Below, one piece after another: positions 3,391 through 58,400 of a stretch of 64,000 nt of DNA (the stretch's first letter is position 1; each line of letters begins with the position of its first letter). Source of the DNA: an uncultured Gemmatimonadales bacterium. Its GTDB lineage: Bacteria > Gemmatimonadota > Gemmatimonadetes > Gemmatimonadales > GWC2-71-9. The stretch is taken from the NCBI GenBank assembly GCA_963779755.1, contig CAVZZO010000003.1:576001-640000 (forward strand), read 5' to 3'. The position numbers were made by a program, and so were the translations under genes. Below the pieces are notes generated by a model that ran no database searches, was not told where the DNA came from, and was given only the letters and a program-made list of their open reading frames with translations.

Positions 3391-5079
3391 TCAGTCCACG
3401 ATCTCCAAATCTAACTCGTCGGCGACCGCATCGAGGGCGGGATCGCGGGACCGGAGAGCCCGCAGCCGCTCGGCCCGGGAATCGGCATCGGACATCCGGC
3501 GGTTACGGGGACGGGATCCGGCCTCGGGAGCGGCGCCGCCGGACCCGGTCCGGACCTCCAGGCGGACCTGACCGCGTACCCGGGCCCCCACCAGATCCTC
3601 GACCACCTTGCGCTGCTTGTTCAGATGGTCCGCAACGACCGGATTATCGCCGGGGATCGCGACCGTGAGCACCGGGGGGGCGACCTCGACCGGCTGCGCC
3701 GCCGCCACCGCCTCGCCCAGGAACCCGCTCTCGGCACGGGCGGCGGCGGCAATGTCTGCCCAGATGGCCTGCAGCGCCGACAGCTCAAAGGCAACGGGCG
3801 GCCCGTCTTCAGGAGGACGGGTAGAGGGCCTGGACTCCGGCTCGCCGGAGGGCTCGGCCGGAGGCGCCGCCCTGCGGCCGGCCGCCGGGGCACGCTCCCG
3901 GCGGGCGGGCGGAGGCGCGGGTGCCTGGCTCGGCGCTGCCGGCACGCCGCTCAGCACCTGGCTCAGATCCACCAGCCGGTCCATCATGGCCCAGCGGAGC
4001 AGCAGCGTCTCCACCTGGAGCCGCGGACTGGCACTGCGGCGGATGCCCGCCTCGCTGTCCGCCAGGAGCCGCAGCATGCGGAGGATGTCGCCCGCTTCCA
4101 GCCGGTCTTTCACCTGATCCAGGCGCTGGCGCATCCCCTCAGTCATTTCCTCGGGCTCGGCGCCCAACTGGAGCATGAGCAGGGCGCGCAGCGCATCGCC
4201 CGCTCCGCTCATGAACTCGGCCAGGTCGCCGCCCTGGTCGAGCAGCCTGTCCACCAGGGGGAATACATCCGCCGGCCGGCGGTCGGCCACCAGATCCAGC
4301 AGCTCGCCGTAGATCTCATCGTCCACCAGGCCCAGGAGCGAGCGGACGCCGGCCGCGGTGAGCTTCTCGTCCCCGAAACTCAGGCACTGATCCAGCAGGC
4401 TCAGGGCATCGCGCATACCGCCGTCGGCCCGGCGGGCCAGGAGGGTGAGCGCGTCCTCCTCGGCGGGGATGCCCTCGGCTTTCAGGACTTCACGAATGCG
4501 GTCCTTGATGGCGGCGGGCCCGATGCGGTGAAAATCGAACCGCTGCAGCCGGGACATGACCGGGGCCGCGGTCTGGGCAATCTTCTGCGGCTCGGTGGTG
4601 GCGAAGACGAACACCACGCCCGGCGGCGGCTCTTCCAGGATCTTGAGCAGCGCGTTCCACGCCTCCCGGGTGAGCATGTGGGCTTCGTCAACGATGTACA
4701 CCTTGTGGTGCCCCTCCTGGGAGGCGGCGTACATCGCCCGCTCGCGCAGATCGCGCGCGTCGTCCACGCCGCGGTTGCTGGCGGCGTCGATTTCCACCAC
4801 ATCCAGGTTGGCCGAGCCGGCCCAGATCCGCTCGCAGCTGGGGCACTCGCCGCAGGGCTCCCCCGGCGGGTCGGCCTGCTCGCGGCGCTCGCAGTTCAAG
4901 GCCATGGCGAGAATTCGGGCGGCGGTGGTCTTCCCGACCCCGCGCGGACCGGTCAGAAGATAGCCGTGCCCCACGCGGCCATGAGCGACGGCGCCCCGGA
5001 GCACCGCGGCGACGTGGTCCTGCACCAGGAGCTCGGAGAATTTTTTCGGGCGGTAGCGGCGGGCGAGTGCGATGGCCAT
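3391..5079 (-). CDS. dnaX: DNA polymerase III subunit gamma/tau
   Basis: LARRYRP, GPRGVGKTT, EIDAASNRGVDD, DEAHML, LLKILEEPP. Confidence 0.97.
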   Translation of the reverse strand: MAIALARRYRPKKFSELLVQDHVAAVLRGAVAHGRVGHGYLLTGPRGVGKTTAARILAMALNCERREQADPPGEPCGECPSCERIWAGSANLDVVEIDAASNRGVDDARDLRERAMYAASQEGHHKVYIVDEAHMLTREAWNALLKILEEPPPGVVFVFATTEPQKIAQTAAPVMSRLQRFDFHRIGPAAIKDRIREVLKAEGIPAEEDALTLLARRADGGMRDALSLLDQCLSFGDEKLTAAGVRSLLGLVDDEIYGELLDLVADRRPADVFPLVDRLLDQGGDLAEFMSGAGDALRALLMLQLGAEPEEMTEGMRQRLDQVKDRLEAGDILRMLRLLADSEAGIRRSASPRLQVETLLLRWAMMDRLVDLSQVLSGVPAAPSQAPAPPPARRERAPAAGRRAAPPAEPSGEPESRPSTRPPEDGPPVAFELSALQAIWADIAAAARAESGFLGEAVAAAQPVEVAPPVLTVAIPGDNPVVADHLNKQRKVVEDLVGARVRGQVRLEVRTGSGGAAPEAGSRPRNRRMSDADSRAERLRALRSRDPALDAVADELDLEIVD

Positions 5080-5178: not shown

Positions 5179-5431
5179 CGTGCTGTCACCCTGAGCGATA
5201 GCGAAGGGGGCGAAGCCGATCGAATGGTTCCGGCGCGACCTAACCCCCTGTCCCCCTTCCCTGGTGGGAAGGGGGGAACGGGGGACATGGAGCTCGCGTG
5301 CTGTCACCCTGAGCGATAGCGAAGGGGGCGAAGCCGATCGAATGGTTCCGGCCGCTTCGCTGCGCTCAGCGTGACGCCGTTCCTCGCCAGGTGCCGGTGA
5401 CGAGCCCGCGCCAGCGGGCGCGGCAATCTCC
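5179..5431. repeat. Mosaic of REP-like palindromic elements with a 56-bp direct repeat
   Basis: Identical copies at 5179-5234 and 5297-5352; second copy closes a hairpin with cttcgctgcgctcagcgtgac (to 5375); hairpin ccccttccc-tggt-gggaagggg near 5252-5275; 5401-5431 is the reverse complement of the 12011-12041 element (1 mismatch). Confidence 0.8.
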
Positions 5432-5447: not shown

Positions 5448-7532
5448 CTACTTCACGACATTCAGGGGCGTGGTGCGCTCGAGTATAGTTCCGTCCGGCG
5501 CCTCGAGGGTAACGTTGAGGGTGTATTTCCCGGGACGGAGATCCTTGAGCAACAGGGCACGAACGAACGCCTGGCGGGTACCGGTGACCGTCTCGGTGAA
5601 GCTGAGCGTGATGCCCTGCCCTTTCCCTTTCGCCGGGGTGATGGCGACCCGCTGGCGGTACGCTGCCCCGGGGGTGAGGCCCGCCGCCTCGTAGTAGAGG
5701 ATGGCCCGGGAGCCGGTGGGAAACGCGGCGAGGGGGTTGAGCGGCAATGGCCCGGCGGGCGATGCCCAGACCAGGCCCGAGCCGCTGCGGCCCAGGATGG
5801 GTTCGCCCAGCGAGAGGCGCCCGGTCGCCGGAATGACGATGCTATCCCGACCCACAATCACCCCCCGGCCGCCGGTCACCTCGGGCCGGGCATCCGCCGG
5901 CCGGACGCCGCTGGTGTCCGGCTCCTCGATCGTCACCCGGACGTTGACCAGGCCGGGCGGCACCGGCAGCTCCAGCAGGCCCGTCAGGTGGTCCTTCCCT
6001 TCCAGCGGCCGGGGAGTCATAAACGTCCGCAGCGTATCCAGGTCTACCCGGCGTCCCCCGTCGGGAGTAGCCGCCACGAGGTGGAAGCGGATGGGATAGC
6101 TGAATCCTGCGATGGAATCTCCCGCTGTGCTCGTCAGGCCATCCGGAGGGATGGCGAAGACGAGCAGCAGGCGACCGCCAACCGTATCCGGTCTGGCGTG
6201 CAATGCGTAGAGCTCCACCGTCGGTTTCAGGTCCCGCCGATAGAACGGCGCATAGTAATCTGTCGTGAGCGCTTCCTCTTTCATGCGCTTCAGCTCGGCA
6301 CCTTGCAGCTGGACCAGCCGCGGGGTCGGCGGGAAGCAGTACCACGGGTCGTAGTCGCAGAGAGTTCCGGGAAGCGCTGCCACGGCGGGGACGACCCTGA
6401 GGTACAGGTTGCCCCTGCTGCGGCGGTAGACCCACCAAGTGCCGACGCGATAGTCGGGCGGGCCATGACGGATGTAAACCGGCCCCCTCGCATCGAACTG
6501 GTCCGTCCCCGGGAGACGATGCTGCGTGAGGAGCGAGCTCCCCCCGCCGAATCGCCGAACATCCAACCCAGCGCCATCGCCTCATCAATGGAATCGGGTG
6601 CGCCCGTCGGTACGTCGGCCGTCAGGGTCTCAATACTCGGCGTGCCGGGAGGCCGCCGGACGACGGCCCTGAAATTCTGGAACGCATATTCGTAGCGCCG
6701 GAAATGTTCCATCAGCCGCGCGCCGGCCGGCCGGCCCACGCCGGCGTCCCGCTTCGACCAGAAGCCCTCGATCCAGCCGCCCAGGGAATCGGGCGGCAGG
6801 CTATCGAACCGTGCCAGCTCTGCTGGCGTAGCCAGCAGCGCCAGATGTGCGCGGTAGGCGTTGCGTCCCTCGACACTGACACCGGCATGGGTCGCGCCGA
6901 GTGCATAGGCGGCCGCTCCTTCCGCTGTTTCGGCGCGCGCATAATATTCCCGCGCCAGCTCCAGCTCCGCCACGGCGCTATCTCCGCCGGCCGCCAGGTA
7001 GCGCTGCAACAGAACGACCGTGGAGTCGCGCACATCCGTCTCCCGCTCCAGGCGGGCGCGGGACAACAGCACCGGCGGCAAACGATCGACCGGCGTGGCG
7101 GCAGTGCGCCGCAGGGCGTCGCGGGCCTGGGTGTACGGCACCCAGGCGGGCATCAGGTCCAGCGCGTCGGACAGGTGGAGCGCGGCAGCGGCAGAAGCCG
7201 AATCCAGCTTCAGCAGCCGCATGAAGCTTTCCGCCGCCCCGCGGGCATAACTGGAGCCGATCGGCTGCAGCGGCCCCGGCTTGGCGATGGCCTTGAGGCG
7301 CGCGAGCTCGAGACGCGCGAGCCCGATGCCGAGCCAGGCCTGCACGCTGTCGGAGCGGTCGCTCGACCACGACGCGCGACCAGCAGTCGAGCTCGCGGCG
7401 GAGCGAATCGGCGGCGGAACGGGGCGCACGGCGGCGTGCAGGGGGGATGCAGGAGCCGGGTGACGCCTGGCCGTGGGGGGGAAGAGTCAGAAAGGCCGCG
7501 AGAAGGAGAACTGGGCCGGCGCGCGCAAACAT
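5448..7532 (-). pseudogene. GWxTD-like exported TPR protein, frameshifted (at least 2 shifts)
   Basis: Signal peptide in ORF 6978-7532, TPR and FWSKRD...RLMEHFRR in ORF 6290-7429, FDARGPVYIRHGPP plus C-terminal beta domains in ORF 5448-6566. Confidence 0.75.
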
Positions 7533-7632: not shown

Positions 7633-9786
7633 TCACCGCCCCTTCGTCACCAACAACTCCTGTTCGCGGGCGATGGTCGGCCCCTCCGGCAGCCGGATCT
7701 CCGCTCGCAGGCGGTACAGGCCCGGCCTGGTCCGGTCCAGCTTGATCGACCGGCGCACCACCAGATTCGTCTCGCTGAGCCGTTCGGTGGTGCTCACCTT
7801 GATGGCCTCCCGCGGCTCGGCTTCCGGTATCAGCGAGAGGGTGACATCCACCGCGGCATCCGGAGAGAGGCCGAGGGCCTCGAGATAGATCTCCACCGTT
7901 CCGCCGGCGGGATAGCTGTTGAGCGGGCTCAGCGGGAAGGGGCCAGCGGCGCTGGGCCAGCGCAGTTCGCTGGCCACGGAACCCAGGAGCAGCGCGCTGA
8001 GAGTGGGGCCATCGGTGGAAGGCGGCGGCACGTCCACGCCCGCCTGGAGGGTGAAGGACCCGGCCTGGGGATCCGTGCCCGTCTCCAGCGATCGGACCTC
8101 GTACCGGCCCGCGGAGACGGGCACCTCGACATAGCCCACCAGCCACTGATCCGGCCGCAGCTTGCGGGAGCCATCGTAGAGGAACGTGGTGTCGAGGGTG
8201 GCCGGTGCTCCACGTTCCGGCAAGGCGGCCAGCCGCAGGCGCAGCGGAATCGCATCGCCCGCGCGCGCGTGAATCTGTCCCAGGCCACCGGGGGGAAGGG
8301 CGAAGGCCACCAGCAACCGGCCCGGGTCGGCCAGCCCGTAGGCGCGCGTCACCGCCTGGAGGTCGCGCGCGAAATGATGCGGATCGGCATCGGTCGTCAC
8401 CGCAAGGTGAATGCGGTCCACGTCCTTTTCCCGCACTGATTCCTGCAGCCGTTCCCGGTGAAGCGGGCGCCTCTCCTCGATCCACTTCGCATAGGTGGAA
8501 TCGTATTGGGCCATCTGGACAGCATTGCCGTCAATCCAGATATCACCCGGCACGATCTTGAAATCACTGGAGGTACAAAAGCGATACTTGCTGATCATCA
8601 GCGTAAAGAAAGGACGAAAGTGTACGACGAGACCATGGTCAGGGCCGTCGTCGTACAGCCAGGAATAAATCGGGCAATCCAGCACACGGTCCATGGGACC
8701 CTCTCGTACTTGTCCCGGGACACCACCCGGCAGGGCTCCCCCATCCATCCCGGATAGCAGGATTCGGCTTGGCGCTCCATGCCGGATGTAAATCACCCCG
8801 CGATCGTCCACCTGATCCTGATCGCTGTGGAACGGCATGACCTTGTTGTAGTCCCGCTTCTTTTTGCGCAGGGGAAACTCCGCCAGGGCAAACCGGATCC
8901 GCTCCTCGTGCTCGGCCAGCCGGTCGGGTGGCGTGCGGAAATCGACAGCCGCGCGGCGGCCCCAGAAGGCGGCGCCCCATTGCCGGCGGCTTACCGAGTC
9001 CAGCGCCATCACGGAATCCAGGGCGTCGGCTTCCGGATCGGTGAGGAGCCAGCCAAGGTCGCGCCGGTACCCGGCGAGGGCGGAGTCACTCCGCATGGCA
9101 CCGAAGCCGTCCAGCCAGGCTTGGTAGCCGTCGGCCAGCCGGCCCAGCATGAGCAGGGCACGGCCTCGCGTGAGCAGGGCGAGCGAGGTGTCGCCGCCCA
9201 CGGCGAGCGCGTGGTCCGCCCGGGCGAGCGCGCTGTCCGCGTGGTGCCATTCGAGTTCGCGGCCGGCCCGGAGCAGCAGCAGGGTGGGATCGTCTGTGGC
9301 GGCCGCCGCACGCTCGAGCAGTATGGCGTCGGCCTCGTCGTCCAGCTTTGCGAGGCGGCGTAGCTCGGCGCTGGCGAGGAGCCTGGCGGCGGGAACGTAC
9401 GCCGAATCGCGGCGGAGTGCTTCGCGCAGCGCCGCCACCGCGCCCTGGGCATAGGACATCCCGATCACCAGGCCCGGCCCGGCGCGCGCGATGGCGCCCT
9501 CCTTGGAGAGATCGAACCTGGCCCGGCCGGCCAGGTACCACGCCTCCACCGGCGGGTCGCGCCGGAAGAGCAGCGTGCTCAGCCGGTCCAGGCCGGCGCT
9601 CAGCTGCCCCTTGTCCCCACAGGCCTCGCCGGCCGAGATGAGCGCGCGGGCGGCATCGATGGCCTCGAGCGTATCCGTGGCCCGAACCTCCGGACACACC
9701 GGAGCCGAGGCCGCCGGTCCCTGAGCGTGAAGCGAAGCGGCGAGTATGGTGGCAAGAAGGAACGGGAGAGCGCTGCGACAGCCCAT
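7633..9786 (-). CDS. GWxTD-like domain exported protein with TPR-like helices
   Basis: Signal peptide ending ASLHAQ; FWGRR...RLAEHEERI; VDDRGVIYIRHGAP; C-terminal ...PGLYRLRAEI beta domain; CATATT -10 six nt before ATG. Confidence 0.8.
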   Translation of the reverse strand: MGCRSALPFLLATILAASLHAQGPAASAPVCPEVRATDTLEAIDAARALISAGEACGDKGQLSAGLDRLSTLLFRRDPPVEAWYLAGRARFDLSKEGAIARAGPGLVIGMSYAQGAVAALREALRRDSAYVPAARLLASAELRRLAKLDDEADAILLERAAAATDDPTLLLLRAGRELEWHHADSALARADHALAVGGDTSLALLTRGRALLMLGRLADGYQAWLDGFGAMRSDSALAGYRRDLGWLLTDPEADALDSVMALDSVSRRQWGAAFWGRRAAVDFRTPPDRLAEHEERIRFALAEFPLRKKKRDYNKVMPFHSDQDQVDDRGVIYIRHGAPSRILLSGMDGGALPGGVPGQVREGPMDRVLDCPIYSWLYDDGPDHGLVVHFRPFFTLMISKYRFCTSSDFKIVPGDIWIDGNAVQMAQYDSTYAKWIEERRPLHRERLQESVREKDVDRIHLAVTTDADPHHFARDLQAVTRAYGLADPGRLLVAFALPPGGLGQIHARAGDAIPLRLRLAALPERGAPATLDTTFLYDGSRKLRPDQWLVGYVEVPVSAGRYEVRSLETGTDPQAGSFTLQAGVDVPPPSTDGPTLSALLLGSVASELRWPSAAGPFPLSPLNSYPAGGTVEIYLEALGLSPDAAVDVTLSLIPEAEPREAIKVSTTERLSETNLVVRRSIKLDRTRPGLYRLRAEIRLPEGPTIAREQELLVTKGR

Positions 9787-9845
9787 GCAGCGAATATGGC
9801 AAGGCGGGCCGGAAAGTGGTAAGGCGTGAGGCGGGAAGGCGGGGG

Positions 9846-9935
9846 CACGCCCGCTGGCGGGGGGTCGCAATGGCGGGAGATTCCAAGCGCATTCCGGGGG
9901 GATTGCTTCGGCGGCTGGCGCCGCCTCGCAATGAC
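9846..9935. repeat. REP-like elements (GATTGC...CTCGCAATGAC family)
   Basis: cacgcccgctggcggggggtcgcaatggc and gattgcttcggcggctggcgccgcctcgcaatgac; relatives at 12011-12048 and 5401-5431. Confidence 0.7.
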
Positions 9936-9940
9936 AGCAT

Positions 9941-9996
9941 GTCCTGCCGTCCTGCCGTCCTGCCGTCCTGCCGTCCTGCCGTCCTGCCGTCCTGCC
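9941..9996. repeat. Perfect tandem repeat (GTCCTGCC)x7
   Basis: Read directly from sequence. Confidence 0.95.
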
Positions 9997-10003
9997 GCCC
10001 GAA

Positions 10004-10053
10004 AAAAGTGCCCCAGGCTCTCCGAAGCGACACCGGACATCGCTTAGCGCTGC
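10004..10053 (-). repeat. Duplicated 3' end of ffs (att-like direct repeat of 12090-12139)
   Basis: aaaagtgccccaggctc(t/c)ccgaagcgacaccggacatcgcttagcgctgc, 49 of 50 identical. Confidence 0.9.
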
Positions 10054-10203
10054 CAAATCCGGCCAATTCTGGCGGATCCTTGCGCTTGCAGGACCCTTCC
10101 CGGAAAAGCAAGTTGGGAATCATGACTGGATTTCCCCCTCAACCCACGGAAACGGCCCGGCATCTGCCCAGATGGGTGGGCTGCGGGCTGTAACGCCCTT
10201 ACC

Positions 10204-11865
10204 GTGCTGCTCGGGGCGTCGTCGCTTCTTGAGGGACAATCCCCGCAGCAGCGGGAGTCTCTGCTGCGCTACCAGGATTCCCTGCAGGAGATGCCTCCCG
10301 CACTGCTCCGCCGGGAGATGGACACGCGCCGGGCACAGGCCGACAGCGAAGCAACCGCAATGGCCCACCTTCGGCTGGGGCTGGCGGCGCTGTCGGTCGG
10401 GCAGAGGGTGGACCACTACCAGCTCGACCGCGCCCGGGGTGCCTTCGAGCAGGCGGCCAGACTCGAACCTGACTGGCCGTGGCCACGGTATGGCATTGGG
10501 CTCGCTCGCCGGGATGACATCTCACGCGGCGACGGCCGCGTGGCATTCCTCCGGCGTTTCTGGGGCAATCGCGACGCCTGGGCGCTGCGTGAACCGGGCA
10601 CGCGACTGCTCGATCACTACAGCAGGCTTCAATACGCCCGGCGGCATTTCGCCCTCGAGGTGAACCGCCGCTTCTACCGGTTCGTGGATACGTACCGGTC
10701 CGGGAGTACGGAACTGGATGACCGGGGCATCGTCTATGTCCGGCAGGGGCCGCCGGAGAAGCGGATCACTGTACCCATCTTCGGCTTCTTTCCCAATGAA
10801 ACCTGGCGATACAAGCGAGCGGACGGCGACCTTCTGTTGCACTTCAGTAGCGGGGGTGGGCAGTCAGGTGGGCACCAGATTGGAGGCGATCTGGGAGATT
10901 ATCACCTCATCCCCAGTCTGCTGAACGCCGGTACACCAGGAGGCGCCACCCCGGCGGCGGGCGGCGATAGCGTGATGCTTTTTGTGTCCCGAACGCCCGT
11001 GACCGATCTCTATGCAAAGTACATGACCTGGGGCCCGGAAGGCCGGAGTCGGGCTATACGAGAAGAGCAGCGAATCGTCGCTCTGAGTACCACCCTCGCC
11101 ACGCAGACCGACGCCGACGAGCTGACCTTTGATTCTGCATTGACGGTGGTCTCAGAGCTTATCGCCCTCGGCACCAACGGTAATCTGACGATGGTTCATG
11201 TGCTGGCCGGCATCCCGGTGAACGTCGGTACCGGTTCGGATCAGCGCCTGACCACGATCCGCACCAGCCTCGGGGTCTTTGACTCTTCCGGAGATCCTGT
11301 GGCATCGCTGGATACCGCCGTCATCCTCCGGCTCACCGGCCCGGTTGCGCCCGGAAGCTGGGCATTTACTCGCGCCCAAGTCGCCGTATCTCCCGGCCAC
11401 TGGACGTATCGGCTTGCTATCGAGCAAGGTGGTGACCGAGGCGTGGTGTTACCCAGAGCCACCATCGCGGTCCCCAACCTCGACGGATCCCGGATCGCCA
11501 TGAGCGACCTGGTGATCGCTCCTTTGCCAGGGAGCTGGCCCTGGCCGCTGGCATCGGGGGATACCGTTTATGCCAGCCCGCTTCACACCTACGGTCGTGG
11601 AGGGCGCATCAGCCTGTACTACGAGGTGTATGGTCTGAAAACTGGTGACTACTCAACCAGGATTTCCGTCTACGAGCGTAAGGGCGCGGAGTTGGGACGA
11701 CGCCGGTTGTCCCTGTCCTTCCACTCGACGGCCAGGGCCACTGTCGCACGCGAACAGCGGACGATTGACCTCCGCGACCTGCAACCTGGCCAGTACTGGT
11801 TGGAGGTTCGCGCCGGTGAAGCCGTACGCAAAAAGGCGATGACGATCGTCGACACGTCGAAGTAG
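10204..11865 (+). CDS. GWxTD-like domain protein lacking the central TPR block (start uncertain)
   Basis: FWGNRD...RLLDHYSRL, LDDRGIVYVRQGPP, PNETWRY, ISLYYEVYGL, LQPGQYWL. Confidence 0.75.
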   Translation: MLLGASSLLEGQSPQQRESLLRYQDSLQEMPPALLRREMDTRRAQADSEATAMAHLRLGLAALSVGQRVDHYQLDRARGAFEQAARLEPDWPWPRYGIGLARRDDISRGDGRVAFLRRFWGNRDAWALREPGTRLLDHYSRLQYARRHFALEVNRRFYRFVDTYRSGSTELDDRGIVYVRQGPPEKRITVPIFGFFPNETWRYKRADGDLLLHFSSGGGQSGGHQIGGDLGDYHLIPSLLNAGTPGGATPAAGGDSVMLFVSRTPVTDLYAKYMTWGPEGRSRAIREEQRIVALSTTLATQTDADELTFDSALTVVSELIALGTNGNLTMVHVLAGIPVNVGTGSDQRLTTIRTSLGVFDSSGDPVASLDTAVILRLTGPVAPGSWAFTRAQVAVSPGHWTYRLAIEQGGDRGVVLPRATIAVPNLDGSRIAMSDLVIAPLPGSWPWPLASGDTVYASPLHTYGRGGRISLYYEVYGLKTGDYSTRISVYERKGAELGRRRLSLSFHSTARATVAREQRTIDLRDLQPGQYWLEVRAGEAVRKKAMTIVDTSK

Positions 11866-12093
11866 TGCTTGGCACCTCACGGCCGGTAGCCGCTCAGCGG
11901 GACACTCGGGTGAGGCGTGAGGTGGGGAGGCGGGGAGGCGGGAGGCAGGGCAAGCAGCGACGGGAACGCATTCCCAACGACGGAAGCAGTGTGCCTGGGT
12001 GGGTACCTCAGGAGATTGCCACGCCCGCTGGCGCGGGCTCGCAATGACGGCCATTCTCTGGCCGCCTTGCACCGCCTTGCCGCCAAAAGAAAA

Positions 12094-12194
12094 GTGCCCC
12101 AGGCTCCCCGAAGCGACACCGGACATCGCTTAGCGCTGCTACCGGCGAGGTCCTGACGCGGTTCGCGCGCCAGCGCCCTTCGGACCTGGGGCAT
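12094..12194 (-). ncRNA. ffs: Signal recognition particle RNA (small bacterial SRP / 4.5S)
   Basis: Long hairpin ATGCCCCAGG/CCTGGGGCAC; domain IV GAACCGCGTCAGG-ACC-loop-GGT-AGCAGCGC; TAACTT -10 upstream; upstream of dnaX, a common ffs position. Confidence 0.9.
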
Positions 12195-12571: not shown

Positions 12572-15286
12572 TTATCGCCCCGTCCCCATCAGGATCGCAT
12601 TGCTCACCAGCCTCGCCGTCCCTCGCCAGAACGCCCGGAAGAGCGGGTCTTCGGCGAAGAGCACCACGTGCCCGCGCCCCACGTTCTCCACCGCCGCCCA
12701 GACCGATTTCCGCAAATATTTCTCGGTGTTCCCGGGCCACGCAAATCCGGCGAGCCGCAGGCTGTCGCCGGTAAAGACGACCGGATTCTCCCCCTTTTGG
12801 GAGGGGGCGAGCGAGACCCCCTGGAGGAAGACCGGCAGCGCCGCCCGGCCATACCCGTAGGCCAGCCAGTGCAGCGTGTCCAGCGTGGCGCGGAAGACGC
12901 TCCCCTGGATGTCCTCCGGCTCCTTGTGATGCGACGCCTCCGGCGAGGCCAGCGGCACCCCCGCGACCACTGTATCGGCCGAGTCGGCTGAGGGACCCTT
13001 TCCCTTTTCTCCCTTTCCCTCTTCCCTTTCGTCCGAGCCCACCGGCTTGGCGCTGGTCAGATCCACTTCCTTCCGGCTCAGCAGTGACACCGCCCCGCCG
13101 GCCGCGATCACCAGCCCCCCGCCATTCACCCAGTCCTTCAGGCGCCGAGCCCCGCCCTCTCCCAGTTGGCGCCAGAGGCCGCCCCCGTATCCGCCCGGCA
13201 GGATCAGGACGTTGTAGTCGTCCAGCCGCATCCGCCCCAGGCTGCTCAGCCGGACAGGCACCACCGGCAGGTCCAGCTCGCGCTCCAGATAGTACCAGAA
13301 GTCCCCGAAGGCGGTGGCGCTGATCCCGTCGCCCGCCGCGAGCAGCACACGTGCGGGATGCAGCGCCTCGACCATCTCGCTGCCCACGCCGTACTGCCCG
13401 CTGTCGGGAAAGCCCGACTGGATGGCGGTCACTTCGACCCGGTCTTCAGCCGCCAGCTGCGCGATCCGCTGGTGCAACGAATCGGGGTTCCGCGCCACCC
13501 GCAGGATGAAGGTGCCGCGGGGCCAGCTGGCGCTGTCGGCCCGGAAGGGCTGGGTGGCGCTCCCCAGCGAGAAGCCTTCGCCCAGGAGGTGCAGCGCCAG
13601 ACGGGCGGCATGGTCGCGGTCATCGGGAAAGACATACGCCACCCGCGCCCGCCCGCCGGACACTCCTCCGGCCTCGGCGCTGTCGGCCCCGGCGGGCACG
13701 CCCGCCACCGGCGCGGTCTCGCCGGTCCACCAGGCGTCCAGTCCGAACGCCAGCGGCAGCGACCAGGCGGTGATGTCATAGAATTCGTAGCCCTCGTGCC
13801 CGGCATCGGGGCCGCGCGCCCCGTTGCGGGCATAGCGGGCCAGCTGCGCCTGGACGAAGCTGGAATCAATGCGCGGATCGGGCTCCAGCAGGGCCGCCGC
13901 CAGGCGGGCCTGCGGCTGCGCCAGGTCCACTATCCACGCGCCGGCCGGAACGACGCGGGCGGAGGCATTGCCGCCCAGATAGGAATGTGCCCGCGCCAGC
14001 CGCAGCGGCGCCCGGGTCCGCTGCACCTCGATACCTTGGCGCTGGAGGAGCTCGGCCAGCTGGCGGGCCCGGTCGGGGTGGTCGCCGGCGGTCCACACCA
14101 CCCGCCGGAGCGGGGCGCGCGCCGCATCGGCCATACCTCCCACGCGGAAATCGTAGAAGTCGCGCAGCAGCCGCTCGCGCGAGGCCGCCGCCGTCGCCAG
14201 CGTCGCCAGCGAGGCCACCTGGTGGTGCGCAATCCCGTCGCGGAAGCTGGTGACAGTGCCGTCGTCCTTGCGCAGGCGCAGCTCGGGCCCGCCGTCGCTC
14301 TCGAAGGTCATCCCCACCGCGCCGTTCAGCACGGGCCAGCTGTCCCAGTATCCGGCGTAGAACAGGTCGAACTCGTCGCGCACGTAGTAGAGCCAGCCGA
14401 AGGCATCGAACGCCGCCGCGTTGCCCCGGCCGAAGCGCTCCAGCCAGTCGCGAATGGTGCCGGGCACGTTGGCGTTGATGGGGCGGGCGTCGGGCGGGAA
14501 GAAGTACTGCGCGGTGGTGCTGTGCAGATCGGCGAAGGCCTGCGGGTGCCAGCGCAGGATGGCCCCGGCCAGGGCCCGCGTCTCCGGCTGCGACTGGGCG
14601 ATGAGATCGCGGTTCATGTCGAACCGGTAGTGATTGTAGCGGCCCACCACGTCCCAGGGCTCGTTGTGCTCCAGCGAGCCCGGCTCGTCGCTGCCCACCG
14701 CCACCGAGTTGGACCAGGCGGCGAACCGCTCGTGTCCGTCCGGGTTCTGTGACGGGTTGATGATCGTCACCACGTTCCGCAGGATCTCCAGCGTGGCGGG
14801 CTCGTCGGAGGCCAGCAGCTGGTAGGTGGTCGCGAGCGCGGCCTCGAAGCCCGCGGGCTCGTCGCCGTGGATGGAGTGGGAGAGCATCACCACGGCGGGA
14901 TCCCGGGCGGCGATGGCCGCGGCCCGTTCGGCGCTGGTACGGCGGGGGTCGGCCAGCGCGGCAAGGTCGGCGCGGATGCTGTCGATGCGGGCGAGGTTCC
15001 CGGGCGCGGAGATGATGATGAGCCGCATCACCCGTCCCTCGGGCGTCCGGCCGATCACTTCGGTGCGCGAGCGCTCGGGCGCCGCCTGCACCATGCGCTC
15101 CAGCGCGGCCTGCTGTTCGGCGTACATCGTCTGCCGCGATCCCAGCGGATGGCCCAGCAGCGAGTCGGGCCGCGGCACGGCGGCACGATAAGGCCCGCGG
15201 GCGTAGAAGTCGAAAGGCTGCTGCGCCTGGAGGGGCGCCGCAACCGCCAGGGATGCCAGCAGAAAACCGGCCCGGATGAGAGGCAT
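12572..15286 (-). CDS. Exported M14 family zinc carboxypeptidase with C-terminal glutamine amidotransferase-like domain
   Basis: Signal peptide; SIHGDE, NPDG, RYNHYRFDMNRD, DLHS motifs; YNVLILPGG...LKDWVNGGG. Confidence 0.88.
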   Translation of the reverse strand: MPLIRAGFLLASLAVAAPLQAQQPFDFYARGPYRAAVPRPDSLLGHPLGSRQTMYAEQQAALERMVQAAPERSRTEVIGRTPEGRVMRLIIISAPGNLARIDSIRADLAALADPRRTSAERAAAIAARDPAVVMLSHSIHGDEPAGFEAALATTYQLLASDEPATLEILRNVVTIINPSQNPDGHERFAAWSNSVAVGSDEPGSLEHNEPWDVVGRYNHYRFDMNRDLIAQSQPETRALAGAILRWHPQAFADLHSTTAQYFFPPDARPINANVPGTIRDWLERFGRGNAAAFDAFGWLYYVRDEFDLFYAGYWDSWPVLNGAVGMTFESDGGPELRLRKDDGTVTSFRDGIAHHQVASLATLATAAASRERLLRDFYDFRVGGMADAARAPLRRVVWTAGDHPDRARQLAELLQRQGIEVQRTRAPLRLARAHSYLGGNASARVVPAGAWIVDLAQPQARLAAALLEPDPRIDSSFVQAQLARYARNGARGPDAGHEGYEFYDITAWSLPLAFGLDAWWTGETAPVAGVPAGADSAEAGGVSGGRARVAYVFPDDRDHAARLALHLLGEGFSLGSATQPFRADSASWPRGTFILRVARNPDSLHQRIAQLAAEDRVEVTAIQSGFPDSGQYGVGSEMVEALHPARVLLAAGDGISATAFGDFWYYLERELDLPVVPVRLSSLGRMRLDDYNVLILPGGYGGGLWRQLGEGGARRLKDWVNGGGLVIAAGGAVSLLSRKEVDLTSAKPVGSDEREEGKGEKGKGPSADSADTVVAGVPLASPEASHHKEPEDIQGSVFRATLDTLHWLAYGYGRAALPVFLQGVSLAPSQKGENPVVFTGDSLRLAGFAWPGNTEKYLRKSVWAAVENVGRGHVVLFAEDPLFRAFWRGTARLVSNAILMGTGR

Positions 15287-15317
15287 CGGATGGTCGAAGG
15301 TCAAAGGTCGAAGTCGA

Positions 15318-52279: not shown

Positions 52280-53860
52280 TCACCCCTTCCCTATTGTGAA
52301 CTCCTGCTCCCGCTCCACCGTCTGCCCTGCGGCATCGCGGATCACCACACGCAGGCTGTAATCTCCCGGGGTCAGGCGCGACAGATCGAGCGTGCGGTTG
52401 GCGCGGGTCGTGGCGCCCGCAGCCTGCTCTTCGAAGCCGATCCGGATCGCCTCCTCACTCCTGCCGAACAGCTTCTGCACCTTGCGGACGACGGTCAGCT
52501 GGGTGCGGTAGGTGGTGCCCGGCGCCAGGCCCAGGACGACATAGTCCACCGTCATGGTGGCGCCGGCGGGGAAATTGGCCGTGGGGTTGAACCAGATGGT
52601 ATCGTCCGGGGCGCGGACCCACCCGGGCCCGATGCTGCGCAGGCCGAGCACCAAGGCTCCGATCGCCAGGGTCTGCGGAGGCGAGGCATCGAGCAATTCC
52701 GGCGCCAGCAGCCGGCCGGAGGAGTCGCCTACCTGCACCGCCAGCCGCCATGCCAGCCGCTCGGCCGGCACCTGGAGAGCGTCGCGCCAGGCCAGGATGC
52801 GGCCGGCGGGCGGTGAGGAAACGCGGAACGCGTGGGTCGTATCCAGAATGGCCACGGGAACGCCGTTGGCATCACTGAACACCACGCGCAGGCGAACCCG
52901 GTAGGCCGCGCTCTCGCTCCAGTCCTCCAGCGCGTTGCCCGGCACGGCGTACGCGACCTGTACGGTCGCGCTGTCCGGCGAGCGCGGCCCCAGCGTGTAC
53001 AATGCCGCCCAGGCCGGAATGCTTCGGGCGAAGCGGGTGGCCGCAAGATCCTGGTCCAGTGCCAGCCAGCGCCGCGCCAGGGCGCGTTTGTATTCCGCCA
53101 GCCCCAGCCCGGGGTCGCCGCCCTCCTTCACGAACAGGCGAAACGCCAGCAGCGCCGAATCGGCGTTGCCGAATTCCCGCTCTGCGCGGCCCCACCAGAG
53201 CAGAAATGCCGGGTCCTTCCGGGCATCGGTGGTATCGGCCTCGCGCACGGCATCCAGAATGATATTGGGGCGGGGATCGTTGAGGGTGGGATTCCCCTCG
53301 GCCCGCACCAGGCCGATCGCGGCGGGCACGAAACCGGGATCGACATCGAGCGCCTGCTGAAAGAAACCGCTGGCCCGGCGGTAGGGATCGCTCTTGAAGG
53401 CTGCGGCAAGCCGGTTCTTGGTGTTGTTTACCGTGTCGCCCCGCGCCAGCTCGGCCTCGCCGCGGAGCCACCAGGCATAGGGCCAGTCCGGTTTCATCCG
53501 CGCTGCCTCGCCGAAGTCCGCCATGGCGGCCTCGGTGGCATGGCGCACCCGCAGCCGCGCCAGCCGGAGAAAGGCCAGTCCCATGCGGAGCCGTTCCATG
53601 GCGCTCTGGCCGGGGCGCCCCAGCTCGATCCGTCCGGTGGCATAGTAGGTGGGCCAGGAGGCCCGGCGCAGCTGCCGCATGGCCGCCGGCAGCGCGGCGG
53701 AATCGGTCAGCAGCGCCAGAGAATCGCGCAGCGAGTCCAGCGCGGCGCGCTGTGACGGCGTCTGGGCCGGGGACGCGGACGGGGCCAGAGACAGTACCGA
53801 CAGCAGCAGGAATGACCCCGCCAGGCGGAGCGCACGCCCCTTGGAGCGGGGCAGGCTCAT
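52280..53860 (-). CDS. GWxTD-family-related exported TPR protein lacking the core motif
   Basis: N-terminus (RAALDSLRDSL, PDWPYAW) and C-terminus (FNPT, LTPGDYSL) match the neighbours; no DDRG.IY motif. Confidence 0.75.
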   Translation of the reverse strand: MSLPRSKGRALRLAGSFLLLSVLSLAPSASPAQTPSQRAALDSLRDSLALLTDSAALPAAMRQLRRASWPTYYATGRIELGRPGQSAMERLRMGLAFLRLARLRVRHATEAAMADFGEAARMKPDWPYAWWLRGEAELARGDTVNNTKNRLAAAFKSDPYRRASGFFQQALDVDPGFVPAAIGLVRAEGNPTLNDPRPNIILDAVREADTTDARKDPAFLLWWGRAEREFGNADSALLAFRLFVKEGGDPGLGLAEYKRALARRWLALDQDLAATRFARSIPAWAALYTLGPRSPDSATVQVAYAVPGNALEDWSESAAYRVRLRVVFSDANGVPVAILDTTHAFRVSSPPAGRILAWRDALQVPAERLAWRLAVQVGDSSGRLLAPELLDASPPQTLAIGALVLGLRSIGPGWVRAPDDTIWFNPTANFPAGATMTVDYVVLGLAPGTTYRTQLTVVRKVQKLFGRSEEAIRIGFEEQAAGATTRANRTLDLSRLTPGDYSLRVVIRDAAGQTVEREQEFTIGKG

Positions 53861-55995
53861 GAGCCCTCGTCCGGTTTGCGCAGGGCGAAGGCCGCCTCCG
53901 CATCGGCCACATGGCCGGCGGCGTCGGTAATGCGCACGCGCAGCCGGTAGTCGCCAGGTTTGAGCCGGCCCAGGCCGACGGCGCGGGACTCGCGGTCCAC
54001 GCCGCCCTGGGCGATCTCGTCGAAGCGAATGCGGACGTCCTCCTTGCGGCCCTTGCGGCCGATGGTCAGCTCGGTCTGGTAGTTACTGCCGGCGCGCAAT
54101 CCGTAGACTTCGTAATAGAGCCGGATGGTCTGGTCCGGGGTAAAGGAGGCGAACGGATTGAAGTACACCGTGTCCTCCGGCACCGGCATCCAGACCGGCC
54201 CACCTTTGCGCCCCAGCACCAGATCGCTCAGCACCGGATCCTCGCTCCGGGCGGAGGGAATGCTCAGCGAGTCGCCCTCCGTTACCGCGCCCAGGCTGTC
54301 CCCGGCCGATACGGCCAGCCGGGCGACGCGCCGGCCCGGTGGTGAGGCGAGCGTCACGCTCCCTCCGACCCAGCCGCCCCCTTCGCCCGACGGCGCGAGC
54401 TCGGTATCGCCCGAGGAGACCGGCTCACCCTCGGCGCTGGTAATGGCCGCCCGTACCCGCAGCGGGCGGCCGATGCCGCCCCCGGCGGTATCGGCCGGCA
54501 GGGATCGGGCCGGCACGGCCCAGACGAAGTGCACCAGAGTGCCCTCGCGGGAGCGGCCCACCGCCAGGATCTGATAGGCCAGTGGGAGGTCGCGGGCGAA
54601 GACCAGCGCATAGCGATCGCTGGTCACCCCCTCCTGAATGTCGTCCTCCGCCTGCCAGCGGGCCTCGTTGGCGTAATGGGCAAAGCTGGCCGAACCCGCA
54701 TCCGCCACCGCCAGGCGCCCGAACAGTTTGTTCCAGCGGGTGATGCCGGAGAGATAGTTGAAACGGTCGGGACAGTTCAGGACCGATTCCAGCAAACGGT
54801 AGTCCTCGCCGCCCGAATGGGGGGCGAAGTGAAAATACAGGTCGCCGCCCGGGCGCTTGTAGCGCCAGGAGACGCAACTGCCCACGTCGAGCCGGTAGAC
54901 CTCGGTGGGCACGCCATGGCGAATGTAGATCTCGCCCCGGTCATCGAACTCACGCTGGCTGGCGTGATAGGCTTCGAACCCCGCATACCGCCGGCGCAGG
55001 GGCAGGCGGCGGAAGTGGCGAACGGCGTAGAAGATGCGGCGGTAATGCTCCTCCAGCCGTTCCCCGTTCCGCCGCAGATCGGCCCGATCGCGGCGGCGCC
55101 AGAAATCGGCCAGGAAGGCCGCTCTCGCCCCGCCGCGCAGCGCATCGAGCCGCTCCAGGGTGGAGTCCCCGGCGATGATCGCGATGTCGCGCCGCAGCAC
55201 CGCCAGGGCGGCGGAGTCGTCGCCCGCCGCGATCTCGTAGTAGTATGCCCGCCCCTCGGGGCGCCCCAGCGCCAGCAGGGTGCGGCCGAGCTCGAGCTTC
55301 CCCCGGGCCTGGTCGCCGCCGGCCGCCAGGTAGGCGCGAAAGGCGGCGACGGCCGAGTCGGGATCGCCGGCCGAGCGCTCGATGATGCCCAGGGAAAACA
55401 GCAGTTCGGGTGTGCGGGCGCCGGGCACGGCCGCCGCCCGTCGCAGCGCGGTGAGCGCGGCCTCGGGATCGGGATTCAGGCGGTCGCGCTCCACCACGCT
55501 CACCAGGGTCACCGCCGCCGGACTGAACGCGCTGTCGAGCTCGAGCGCCCGGTGCAGGTCGCGCTGCGCCAGCCGAGCCGGATCGGTGCGGAACAGTCCC
55601 CGGACCCGGGTGATCACCTTGTAACTGGTATCCATGGTGCCGGCTTCGGCCAGACCCAGCCCGTACCAGGGATAGGCCCAGTCGGGCTCGAGGTCGGCCG
55701 CCCACTGGAACTCCGAGCCGGCATCGTCGAAGCGCGAGCGGCTGCCCAGCTGCGCCAGCCGCAGGTTGACCAGCCCGATCCGCAGGTGCCGGTAGGCGTC
55801 GTCCCGGTCCACGCGGGCGGTGTCGACCATCCGGGCTTCCAGCACCGCCAGGGCGGCCGTATCCGTTTCCTGGGAGAGCGAGTCGCGGAAGCGTTCCAGG
55901 GCGCCGACGCGGGCGGACTCCTGGCCGCAGACCGGCGCCGCGCCCAGGGCCAGCAATGCGGCCAGGCCGGCGAACCGCACCAGCCTCGCGCTCAC
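53857..55995 (-). CDS. GWxTD-like domain exported protein
   Basis: Signal peptide, TPR-like helices, FWRRRD...RLEEHYRR, FDDRGEIYIRHGVP. Confidence 0.82.
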   Translation of the reverse strand: MSARLVRFAGLAALLALGAAPVCGQESARVGALERFRDSLSQETDTAALAVLEARMVDTARVDRDDAYRHLRIGLVNLRLAQLGSRSRFDDAGSEFQWAADLEPDWAYPWYGLGLAEAGTMDTSYKVITRVRGLFRTDPARLAQRDLHRALELDSAFSPAAVTLVSVVERDRLNPDPEAALTALRRAAAVPGARTPELLFSLGIIERSAGDPDSAVAAFRAYLAAGGDQARGKLELGRTLLALGRPEGRAYYYEIAAGDDSAALAVLRRDIAIIAGDSTLERLDALRGGARAAFLADFWRRRDRADLRRNGERLEEHYRRIFYAVRHFRRLPLRRRYAGFEAYHASQREFDDRGEIYIRHGVPTEVYRLDVGSCVSWRYKRPGGDLYFHFAPHSGGEDYRLLESVLNCPDRFNYLSGITRWNKLFGRLAVADAGSASFAHYANEARWQAEDDIQEGVTSDRYALVFARDLPLAYQILAVGRSREGTLVHFVWAVPARSLPADTAGGGIGRPLRVRAAITSAEGEPVSSGDTELAPSGEGGGWVGGSVTLASPPGRRVARLAVSAGDSLGAVTEGDSLSIPSARSEDPVLSDLVLGRKGGPVWMPVPEDTVYFNPFASFTPDQTIRLYYEVYGLRAGSNYQTELTIGRKGRKEDVRIRFDEIAQGGVDRESRAVGLGRLKPGDYRLRVRITDAAGHVADAEAAFALRKPDEGS

Positions 55996-58274: not shown

Positions 58275-58400
58275 CCGAAAATCCTTCGCCAGCCGGCCCG
58301 CCCCCGGGCCGGGGGAGGCGGATGGCTGTTGCCATACCTGAGGGTCACACCGATATCCCCGGTTGTCAATGGAAAGGCGGCTCTTCCGGCGCCCCGGAAG

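What the first reader, a model, noticed from the sequence alone, without database searches (positions are those of the whole stretch)
10004..12139. Islet integrated into the SRP RNA gene, with att-like repeats but no integrase
Seen: the last 50 bp of ffs, starting just 3' of the domain IV apical stem, recur 2.1 kb downstream (49/50 identical) and enclose one opposite-strand GWxTD-like gene. Known: an intact gene plus displaced 3' fragment is the footprint of tyrosine-integrase insertion, mostly at tRNA/tmRNA genes, with ffs a rarer target. Inference: a minimal cassette mobilised in trans, or the remnant of a larger island.
Basis: partly seen in the sequence, partly recalled or inferred. Interest (0 to 1): 0.72.

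Follow-up and report, generated by a model that had tools for sequence, protein, structure and literature searches.

The report
Insertion scar at SRP RNA gene
In this Gemmatimonadales genome the back half of the SRP RNA gene is repeated 2.1 kb away around one damaged gene of unknown function, likely the scar of an ordinary one-off recombination event rather than a working mobile element.

Summary
The repeat is real: the 3' half of ffs recurs 2,086 bp downstream (49/50) around one opposite-strand GWxTD-family gene, and ffs abuts dnaX in 107 of 127 family genomes, so DNA was inserted. The integrase reading is weakly supported. The repeated unit is about 235 bp (ffs half plus its whole downstream spacer, spacer diverged), longer than an att core. 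No integrase-bearing ffs island turned up in 271 family genomes, 40 further phylum loci, or GTDB, JGI and IMG/VR pattern scans. Of 10 loci in this genome bounded by unique short direct repeats, only one (tRNA-Arg) holds a tyrosine integrase; cysC, argR and a TPR gene show integrase-free end duplications around cargo. The cargo lacks 166 residues and probably its start, so it is likely a pseudogene. Best reading (0.45): host recombination brought a sister lineage's ffs-spacer-cargo in. A decayed integrase island remains possible (0.30): two relatives carry an ffs fragment starting in the apical loop. ffs as an attachment site is published (phiEf11), and this scan noted it before in Photobacterium and Methanothrix.

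The parts
12093..12192 (-). intact ffs (small SRP RNA gene)
   Evidence: Rfam RF00169, 45 bits; folds as one long hairpin, z -3.3
12090..12139 (-). 3' half of intact ffs plus T-run: one copy of the 50-bp repeat
10004..10053 (-). displaced ffs 3' fragment, 49/50 identical; the mismatch (10021) falls in a predicted bulge and is a natural allele in 4 of 71 distinct family ffs sequences
11897..12089 (-). spacer downstream of intact ffs: octamer-type repeats, REP-like hairpin (12011-12050), 27-mer (11909-11935) shared only with the other end
9808..10003 (-). spacer downstream of the fragment, homologous to 11897-12089: octamer array (9941-10000), REP-like hairpins (9898-9938, 9846-9876), 27-mer (9818-9844)
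10204..11865 (+). cargo: GWxTD-family gene, 553 aa, with an in-frame loss of residues 131-296 of its closest homologue P0002 (76% identical); likely pseudogene; GC3 0.73
10054..10203 (.). unique 150-bp junction and cargo leader; holds GCCGG five bases before the fragment start and an ATG (10172) out of frame with the cargo ORF
7633..9786 (-). second GWxTD paralogue, outside the repeats, 25% identical to the cargo
5448..7429 (-). third GWxTD paralogue, split over two frames near 6560, about 65% identical to the tandem copies at C3:826-837 kb
5401..5431 (-). REP-like hairpin whose only near copy in the genome (3 or fewer mismatches) is 12011-12041
3391..5079 (-). dnaX, the normal downstream neighbour of ffs
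12572..15304 (-). M14 peptidase gene upstream of ffs, conserved neighbour in many relatives

Best explanation
The 3' half of ffs and its downstream spacer are present twice around a damaged GWxTD gene, likely because host recombination, not a dedicated integrase, inserted a piece of a related lineage's chromosome here once. Inferred steps: a donor carried ffs, spacer and a reversed GWxTD gene; it was anchored by homologous recombination in or upstream of ffs; its far end joined the recipient in the middle of ffs at an imperfect GC-rich microhomology (GCCGG and GCAGC). The intact ffs, its spacer and the cargo would then be donor DNA, and the fragment with its spacer the recipient's original. 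That would explain a near-identical ffs part (both alleles were under selection until recently) next to diverged spacers. The cargo then decayed, and the islet would now be inert apart from rare loss through the 50-bp repeat.
For: Shown: a 27-mer occurs only at 9818 and 11909 genome-wide at up to 4 mismatches, and a 31-mer REP variant only at 9846 and 12020 at up to 3, so the repeated unit is about 235 bp. The ffs part is 98% identical while a non-REP spacer block has 6 mismatches and a gap in 39 columns. The one ffs difference is a structure-neutral natural allele (4 of 71; only 31 of 135 possible substitutions reach 3% of alleles). Of 10 loci (12 rows) with unique 35-450 bp direct repeats 0.4-12 kb apart, only the tRNA-Arg locus contains a PF00589 match. 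Close analogues without integrase: 190 bp of the cysC 5' end (98%) around one sulfatase gene 2.25 kb apart, 175 bp of argR around one gene, and a TPR gene 3' end around PD40 genes. The ffs-dnaX gap has taken up 1.0-2.8 kb of DNA in 6 of 127 relatives, 4 of them with no ffs fragment, including a GWxTD gene in G056, the nearest genome by dnaX. In G142 the ffs half plus spacer is duplicated head to tail in a 133-bp unit with no cargo. Cargo GC3 is 0.73 against 0.87-0.89 for dnaX and the M14 gene. [quoted passage not shown]
Against: No donor or same-species empty allele was found: G000 is alone in its genus, and the one sequencing run gave no contig across either junction. The junction is not a clean microhomology. 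The fragment has the orientation and 3'-end position expected of an integrase attachment site and begins 5 nt upstream of the position equivalent to the phiEf11 core. The G142/G220 fragments begin in the apical loop, 7 nt from this one, which may point to a site-specific cause. The spacer as a whole is not the best match to its partner among 43 REP-anchored windows (score 111; two others score 115 and 114), and the unique motifs were picked after inspection. Natural competence in this lineage was not tested. The passages read describe only very short integrations by this route.
Confidence: 0.45

Rival explanations
1. Decayed tyrosine-integrase island. An element whose attP carried an ffs 3' half and spacer from an earlier host integrated into ffs, then lost its integrase and everything except one cargo gene.
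For: Intact gene plus same-orientation 3' fragment downstream passes the Islander orientation, configuration and 2-kb length filters (PMC4383910, passages). phiEf11 uses ffs, with a 27-nt core starting just 3' of the helix-8 GCAGC (PMC12540744). G142 and G220 have a displaced ffs fragment that starts in the apical loop. This genome has a true integrase island at tRNA-Arg and an integrase-free tRNA-Gln fragment enclosing a GxxExxY gene. Lower cargo GC3 fits foreign origin.
Against: No integrase or remnant in the islet. No integrase-bearing ffs island in 271 family genomes with an ffs match (only 2 candidates scored per genome), in 40 more phylum loci within 12 kb, in GTDB (23 hits, all intact ffs), JGI (1 hit, a noisy intact ffs), IMG/VR (0 hits in 3 scans), or phage and plasmid records. 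The repeat unit is about 235 bp. The cargo belongs to a chromosomal family with a dozen paralogues here and was not found in viral contigs.
Confidence: 0.3
2. In-place tandem duplication of the ffs 3' half and spacer, as in G142, followed by a separate insertion of the GWxTD gene between the copies.
For: G142 shows such a 133-bp head-to-tail unit. The genome has many local repeats (236 rows of 28 bp or more within 12 kb). The three spacers of the ffs-dnaX interval share REP variants found nowhere else. If spacer divergence is only about 10%, one change in 50 is unremarkable (P 0.29).
Against: It needs two events. At 16-20% spacer divergence the free fragment should carry 4-5 changes, and P of at most one is 0.04-0.09. 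The single change is a tolerated natural allele.
Confidence: 0.17
3. A live minimal cassette excised and spread by an integrase supplied in trans.
For: Both repeats are nearly intact and 2.1 kb apart; the genome encodes one phage-type integrase at tRNA-Arg.
Against: The cargo lacks 166 residues and its likely start is out of frame. The cargo DNA has no close copy in 400 family genomes (one partial 73% match). The resident integrase sits at a tRNA-Arg 5' repeat with a different sequence.
Confidence: 0.05
4. Mis-assembly of a foreign piece at a conserved ffs.
For: ffs is a frequent contig break in relatives (G168, G274, G309), and no independent record bridges the junctions.
Against: The contig is 1.82 Mb. 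The copies differ in sequence and have homologous but diverged flanks. Run X1 has mismatch-free pieces from the cargo, the neighbouring paralogue and the M14 gene, though X1 may not be independent of the assembly.
Confidence: 0.03

Closest known systems
Enterococcus faecalis phage phiEf11 integration into ffs (PMC12540744; abstract, passages and section 11 read; supplements not read)
   Same: Target is the ffs 3' half, and the repeat begins just 3' of the helix-8 apical stem.
   Different: phiEf11 has its integrase 74 nt from a 27-nt core and replaces the ffs 3' end with non-homologous DNA. Here there is no integrase, the repeat covers the entire 3' half and continues into about 185 bp of host-type spacer.
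Islander-type tRNA/tmRNA genomic islands made by tyrosine integrases (PMC4383910; passages read)
   Same: Intact RNA gene plus displaced 3' end fragment in the same orientation, 2.1 kb apart.
   Different: Fails the integrase filter; the target is ffs; the cargo is a degenerate paralogue of a resident chromosomal family.
Homology-facilitated illegitimate recombination (PMC6382021; passages read) and unequal-recombination gene insertion (general knowledge)
   Same: One long homologous side, one GC-rich imperfect junction, no recombinase gene; similar end duplications at cysC, argR and a TPR gene in this genome.
   Different: Donor, competence and RecA dependence are not shown; a product that duplicates rather than deletes recipient DNA is inferred.
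Tn7-like transposons with mini type I-F CRISPR at the SRP-RNA site of Vibrio (PMC6360697; passages read)
   Same: Insertion beside ffs.
   Different: These insert downstream of the gene with a 5-bp duplication and are 20-51 kb with transposase genes; here there is a 50-bp gene fragment and no room for such genes.
GWxTD domain proteins (TIGR04514)
   Same: Cargo, both neighbours and full-length homologues P0002 and P0003 match the model.
   Different: The cargo scores below cut-off and lacks most of the helical repeat region and the first part of the domain.

Membership tests
Tyrosine-integrase island in an RNA gene | Intact target gene plus displaced end fragment in the same orientation and correct configuration | tested here: met
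Tyrosine-integrase island in an RNA gene | Empty site in relatives | tested here: met
   ffs within 175 bp of dnaX in 107 of 127 family genomes and within 300 bp in 33 of 40 other phylum loci; other genera only, so not a precise same-species attB
Tyrosine-integrase island in an RNA gene | Integrase gene within or overlapping the island | tested here: not met
   5 PF00589 matches in the genome, none in the islet; non-coding parts match nothing informative
Tyrosine-integrase island in an RNA gene | A cognate integrase clade using this site in the lineage | tested here: not met
   not found in those searched; patterns miss interrupted or shorter fragments, and assemblies are fragmented
Tyrosine-integrase island in an RNA gene | Fixed crossover point shared by independent insertions | tested here: inconclusive
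   G142/G220 fragments (one event) start 7 nt upstream of this one; the phiEf11 core starts 5 nt downstream of the equivalent position
Tyrosine-integrase island in an RNA gene | Precise excision to a circle | not testable with these tools
   the only run found is low-cover contigs with no joint across the islet
Tn7-like element at ffs | 5-bp target duplication, transposase genes, insertion downstream of the intact gene | tested here: not met
   50-bp fragment repeat and a single GWxTD ORF
Homology-facilitated or unequal recombination insertion | Long homology on one side and microhomology junction on the other, no recombinase | tested here: inconclusive
   about 235-bp duplicated unit; gapped GCCGG/GCAGC match at the junction; donor unknown
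Homology-facilitated or unequal recombination insertion | RecA dependence and DNA uptake | not testable with these tools
   uncultured lineage
GWxTD domain protein (TIGR04514) | Model score above the 28-bit cut-off | tested here: not met
   cargo 24 bits; full-length homologues 30.7 and 32.3 bits; the shortfall follows from the deletion, so it is a truncated member

The most novel reading that the evidence does not exclude
Gemmatimonadales have an undescribed site-specific system that cuts at the ffs apical loop, carries the ffs 3' half with its spacer as a long attachment site, and delivers single envelope-protein genes such as GWxTD paralogues into the ffs-dnaX interval without an on-board integrase. 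G000 and G142/G220 would be independent scars of it.
Probability: 0.1. Interest if true: 0.6.

Novelty: new member of a known kind. Interest (0 to 1): 0.22.

Why it matters
As read here it matters little: a single decayed insertion in one genome. It is a useful caution that an RNA gene plus displaced 3' fragment is not proof of an integrase, since this genome shows the same footprint at protein genes. If the island reading is right, it would extend ffs integration from Enterococcus (PMC12540744) to Gemmatimonadota; none of the 10 listed of 106 papers, nor the listings, reports that. If the novel case held, it would offer a route for the expansion of GWxTD genes, a family for which one search returned no relevant paper.

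Tried and rejected
Reads: one soil run, share 0.09, no RNA holder listed; laid twice, no joint across the islet and no contig over either junction; uninformative on excision or an empty allele.
Second ffs matches in 11 family genomes: 2 real fragments (G142, G220); 5 rejected after viewing as contig overlaps or a second full gene (G309, G168, G274, G083, G187); G180 rejected after viewing as an internal 23-nt match; G140, G115 and G174 rejected from the table alone as short internal matches on other contigs.
Pattern scans for displaced fragments returned only intact genes. One of the 23 GTDB loci (L070) has an integrase-like hit about 8.5 kb away beyond dnaX with no fragment, so it was not counted as an ffs island. 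The patterns need a fragment intact from GCAGC to the 3' end and would miss G142-type or phiEf11-type fragments.
E. coli ffs 3' part: one place in each of 5,425 genomes, no useful phage hit, so no boundary to compare; very short 3'-end fragments would be missed.
My idea that the mismatch converts a wobble to a Watson-Crick pair (in notebook entry 4) was wrong: the site is unpaired in the predicted fold.
The REP-plus-octamer composite beside both ends is a dispersed element (21 regex copies; also in G056) and was not used alone as evidence of homology.
A fold of P0002 (pLDDT 90.6; helical repeats, a mixed domain, two beta sandwiches) had no PDB match with query TM above 0.16 among the rows shown; no function assigned.
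No sigma-70-like promoter passed the scan. PMC12884075 has no mention of ffs or SRP in its main text. Serine recombinases and transposases were not screened by profile. Genomic contexts of P0002 and P0003 could not be obtained.

Full report
Observation. The window is C3:576001-640000 of a 4.23-Mb, four-contig genome. GTDB records with this ffs type are titled Gemmatimonadales or Gemmatimonadota. ffs is at 12093-12192 (-). Its 3' half and T-run recur at 10004-10053, 49/50 identical, 2,086 bp away, and no other significant copy exists in the genome. Between them is one opposite-strand ORF, 10204-11865, with a sub-threshold GWxTD match.

Context. In ffs orientation the order is M14 peptidase, ffs, reversed cargo, ffs fragment, GWxTD paralogue 2, GWxTD paralogue 3 (split), dnaX. 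In relatives ffs normally abuts dnaX: 24 of 26 ffs loci have dnaX within 1.5 kb. Among the 127 family genomes whose two positions both appeared in the truncated listings are adjacent within 175 bp, 13 have ffs inverted, 6 have 1.0-2.8 kb inserts and 1 is split over contigs. So about 7 kb has been added here, and only 2.1 kb of it lies inside the repeat. G056, the closest genome by dnaX (84%), also has a GWxTD gene in this gap, without an ffs fragment.

The repeat is longer than 50 bp. Downstream of both ffs ends lie a T-run, octamer-type repeats and a REP-like hairpin. That composite is dispersed in the genome, so I tested for features unique to the two sites. A 27-mer is found only at 9818 and 11909 at up to 4 mismatches, and a 31-mer REP variant only at 9846 and 12020 at up to 3. 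The unit is therefore about 235 bp and reaches to within about 30 bp of the next start codon. Against this, the whole spacer scores no better against its partner than against two other REP-anchored windows of 43, and the motifs were chosen after inspection. The ffs part is 98% identical, while a non-REP block differs at 6 positions plus a gap in 39 columns. The single ffs difference is unpaired in the predicted fold and occurs in 4 of 71 distinct family alleles. This pattern suits two alleles from related lineages brought together recently. It is weak evidence: P is 0.04-0.29 under in-place duplication, depending on the spacer divergence assumed.

Cargo. Its closest homologues are full-length proteins of 743 and 727 aa (76% and 61% identical in the alignment). 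The cargo lacks P0002 residues 131-296 in frame, most of the predicted helical repeat region. A plausible start at 10172 is out of frame; a sequencing indel cannot be excluded. GC3 is 0.73 against 0.87-0.89 for flanking core genes. The genome has about a dozen paralogues in clusters, and 102 of 300 family genomes have strong matches to P0002. This is a chromosomal family, and the cargo is likely a pseudogene.

Search for an integrase. The genome has 5 PF00589 matches. By my reading of their sequence and context (labels recalled, not from a call) they are XerC, XerD, two integron integrases and one phage-type integrase; the last lies in a 9.8-kb island bounded by a 40-bp tRNA-Arg 5' repeat. None is near ffs. 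Of 271 family genomes with an ffs match, 11 had a second match, and only G142 and G220 (one genus, 2 of its 5 genomes) carry a real fragment. There it lies about 75 bp downstream, starts in the apical loop, is interrupted by a hairpin and, in G142, includes the spacer in a 133-bp head-to-tail unit. No integrase gene was seen among the ORFs between ffs and dnaX there. Forty loci from other families showed no fragment and no integrase within 12 kb downstream. Pattern scans of GTDB, JGI and IMG/VR, and BLAST of phage and plasmid records, found no displaced fragment. These searches have limits: 2 candidates scored per genome, patterns that need an intact fragment, and fragmented assemblies that lose islands.

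The footprint is not specific in this genome. A filtered self-comparison gave 12 rows at 10 loci with unique direct repeats of 35-450 bp, 0.4-12 kb apart. Only the tRNA-Arg locus holds a tyrosine recombinase. Three were examined: a 98% copy of the cysC 5' end around a sulfatase gene, a 97% copy of the argR 5' part after one cargo gene, and an 86% copy of a TPR gene 3' end around PD40 genes. tRNA-Gln, tRNA-Pro and tRNA-Met also have short partial copies nearby.

Mechanism. Shown: insertion, duplicated ffs half plus spacer, broken cargo, no integrase. Inferred: a one-off event by host recombination, most likely homologous anchoring of DNA from a related lineage at ffs with an illegitimate join at mid-ffs (0.45). 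A decayed integrase island (0.30) fits the geometry, the phiEf11 precedent and the nearby G142 boundary, but lacks any integrase-bearing relative. In-place duplication plus later insertion takes 0.17, a live cassette 0.05 and mis-assembly 0.03.

Known versus new. ffs as an integrase attachment site is published for phiEf11, with 251 ffs-inserted prophages predicted in enterococci (PMC12540744; abstract, passages, section 11; its supplementary tables were not read and may list other taxa). Tn7-like elements also use the SRP-RNA locus (PMC6360697, passages). Unchecked notes from this scan report integrase islands at ffs in Photobacterium and at the 7S gene in Methanothrix; I did not verify them, and my E. 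coli search found no long fragment. The finding resembles an RNA-gene island but fails the integrase test, so it is not filed as one. Interest 0.22.

Noticed in passing
13 of 127 family genomes, e.g. L005 (G012:C62:2498-2695): ffs is inverted relative to dnaX (divergent, 87-208 bp apart) in several genera, so the locus has been flipped more than once or early in those lineages.
   Followed up: partly
L198 (G000:C3:1553300-1554450): A tRNA-Gln(CTG) 3' fragment, interrupted by a hairpin at the T loop, lies 675 bp downstream of the gene and encloses an opposite-strand GxxExxY gene (TIGR04256, 130 bits); no integrase.
   Followed up: partly
G000:C1:1614415-1614647 and C3:410597-410730: tRNA-Pro(GGG) has an upstream copy split by a hairpin insert resembling the one in the tRNA-Gln fragment; tRNA-Met has short tandem 3' copies. 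A small element may insert at GTT/C.
   Followed up: no
L200 (G000:C3:31759-41680): Intact-looking 9.8-kb integrase island bounded by a perfect 40-44 bp tRNA-Arg(TCT) 5' repeat.
   Followed up: partly
window 5448-7429: Third GWxTD paralogue is split by a frameshift at a C run near 6550; real or a sequencing indel. It is about 65% identical to tandem copies at C3:826-837 kb.
   Followed up: partly
window about 52280-58280 (C3:628280-634274): Three tandem GWxTD genes; the first appears to be the family-wide copy, found 20-45 kb from ffs in many relatives.
   Followed up: no
G000:C3:367000-406000 and C1:690807-691808: Two integron-integrase-like genes (label from my reading), one next to a long array of attC-like repeats.
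   Followed up: no
L082 (G216) and L092 (G245): A gene resembling phenylalanine hydroxylase (label recalled) with a short leader and hairpin sits directly after ffs.
   Followed up: no
P0002 model: Full-length GWxTD protein folds confidently (pLDDT 90.6) into helical repeats, a mixed domain and two beta sandwiches, with no whole-chain PDB match; function open.
   Followed up: partly
L201, L202, L199, L203: Partial duplications of argR, cysC, a TPR gene and a gene end resembling ribonucleotide reductase (label recalled) each flank inserted DNA without an integrase.
   Followed up: partly
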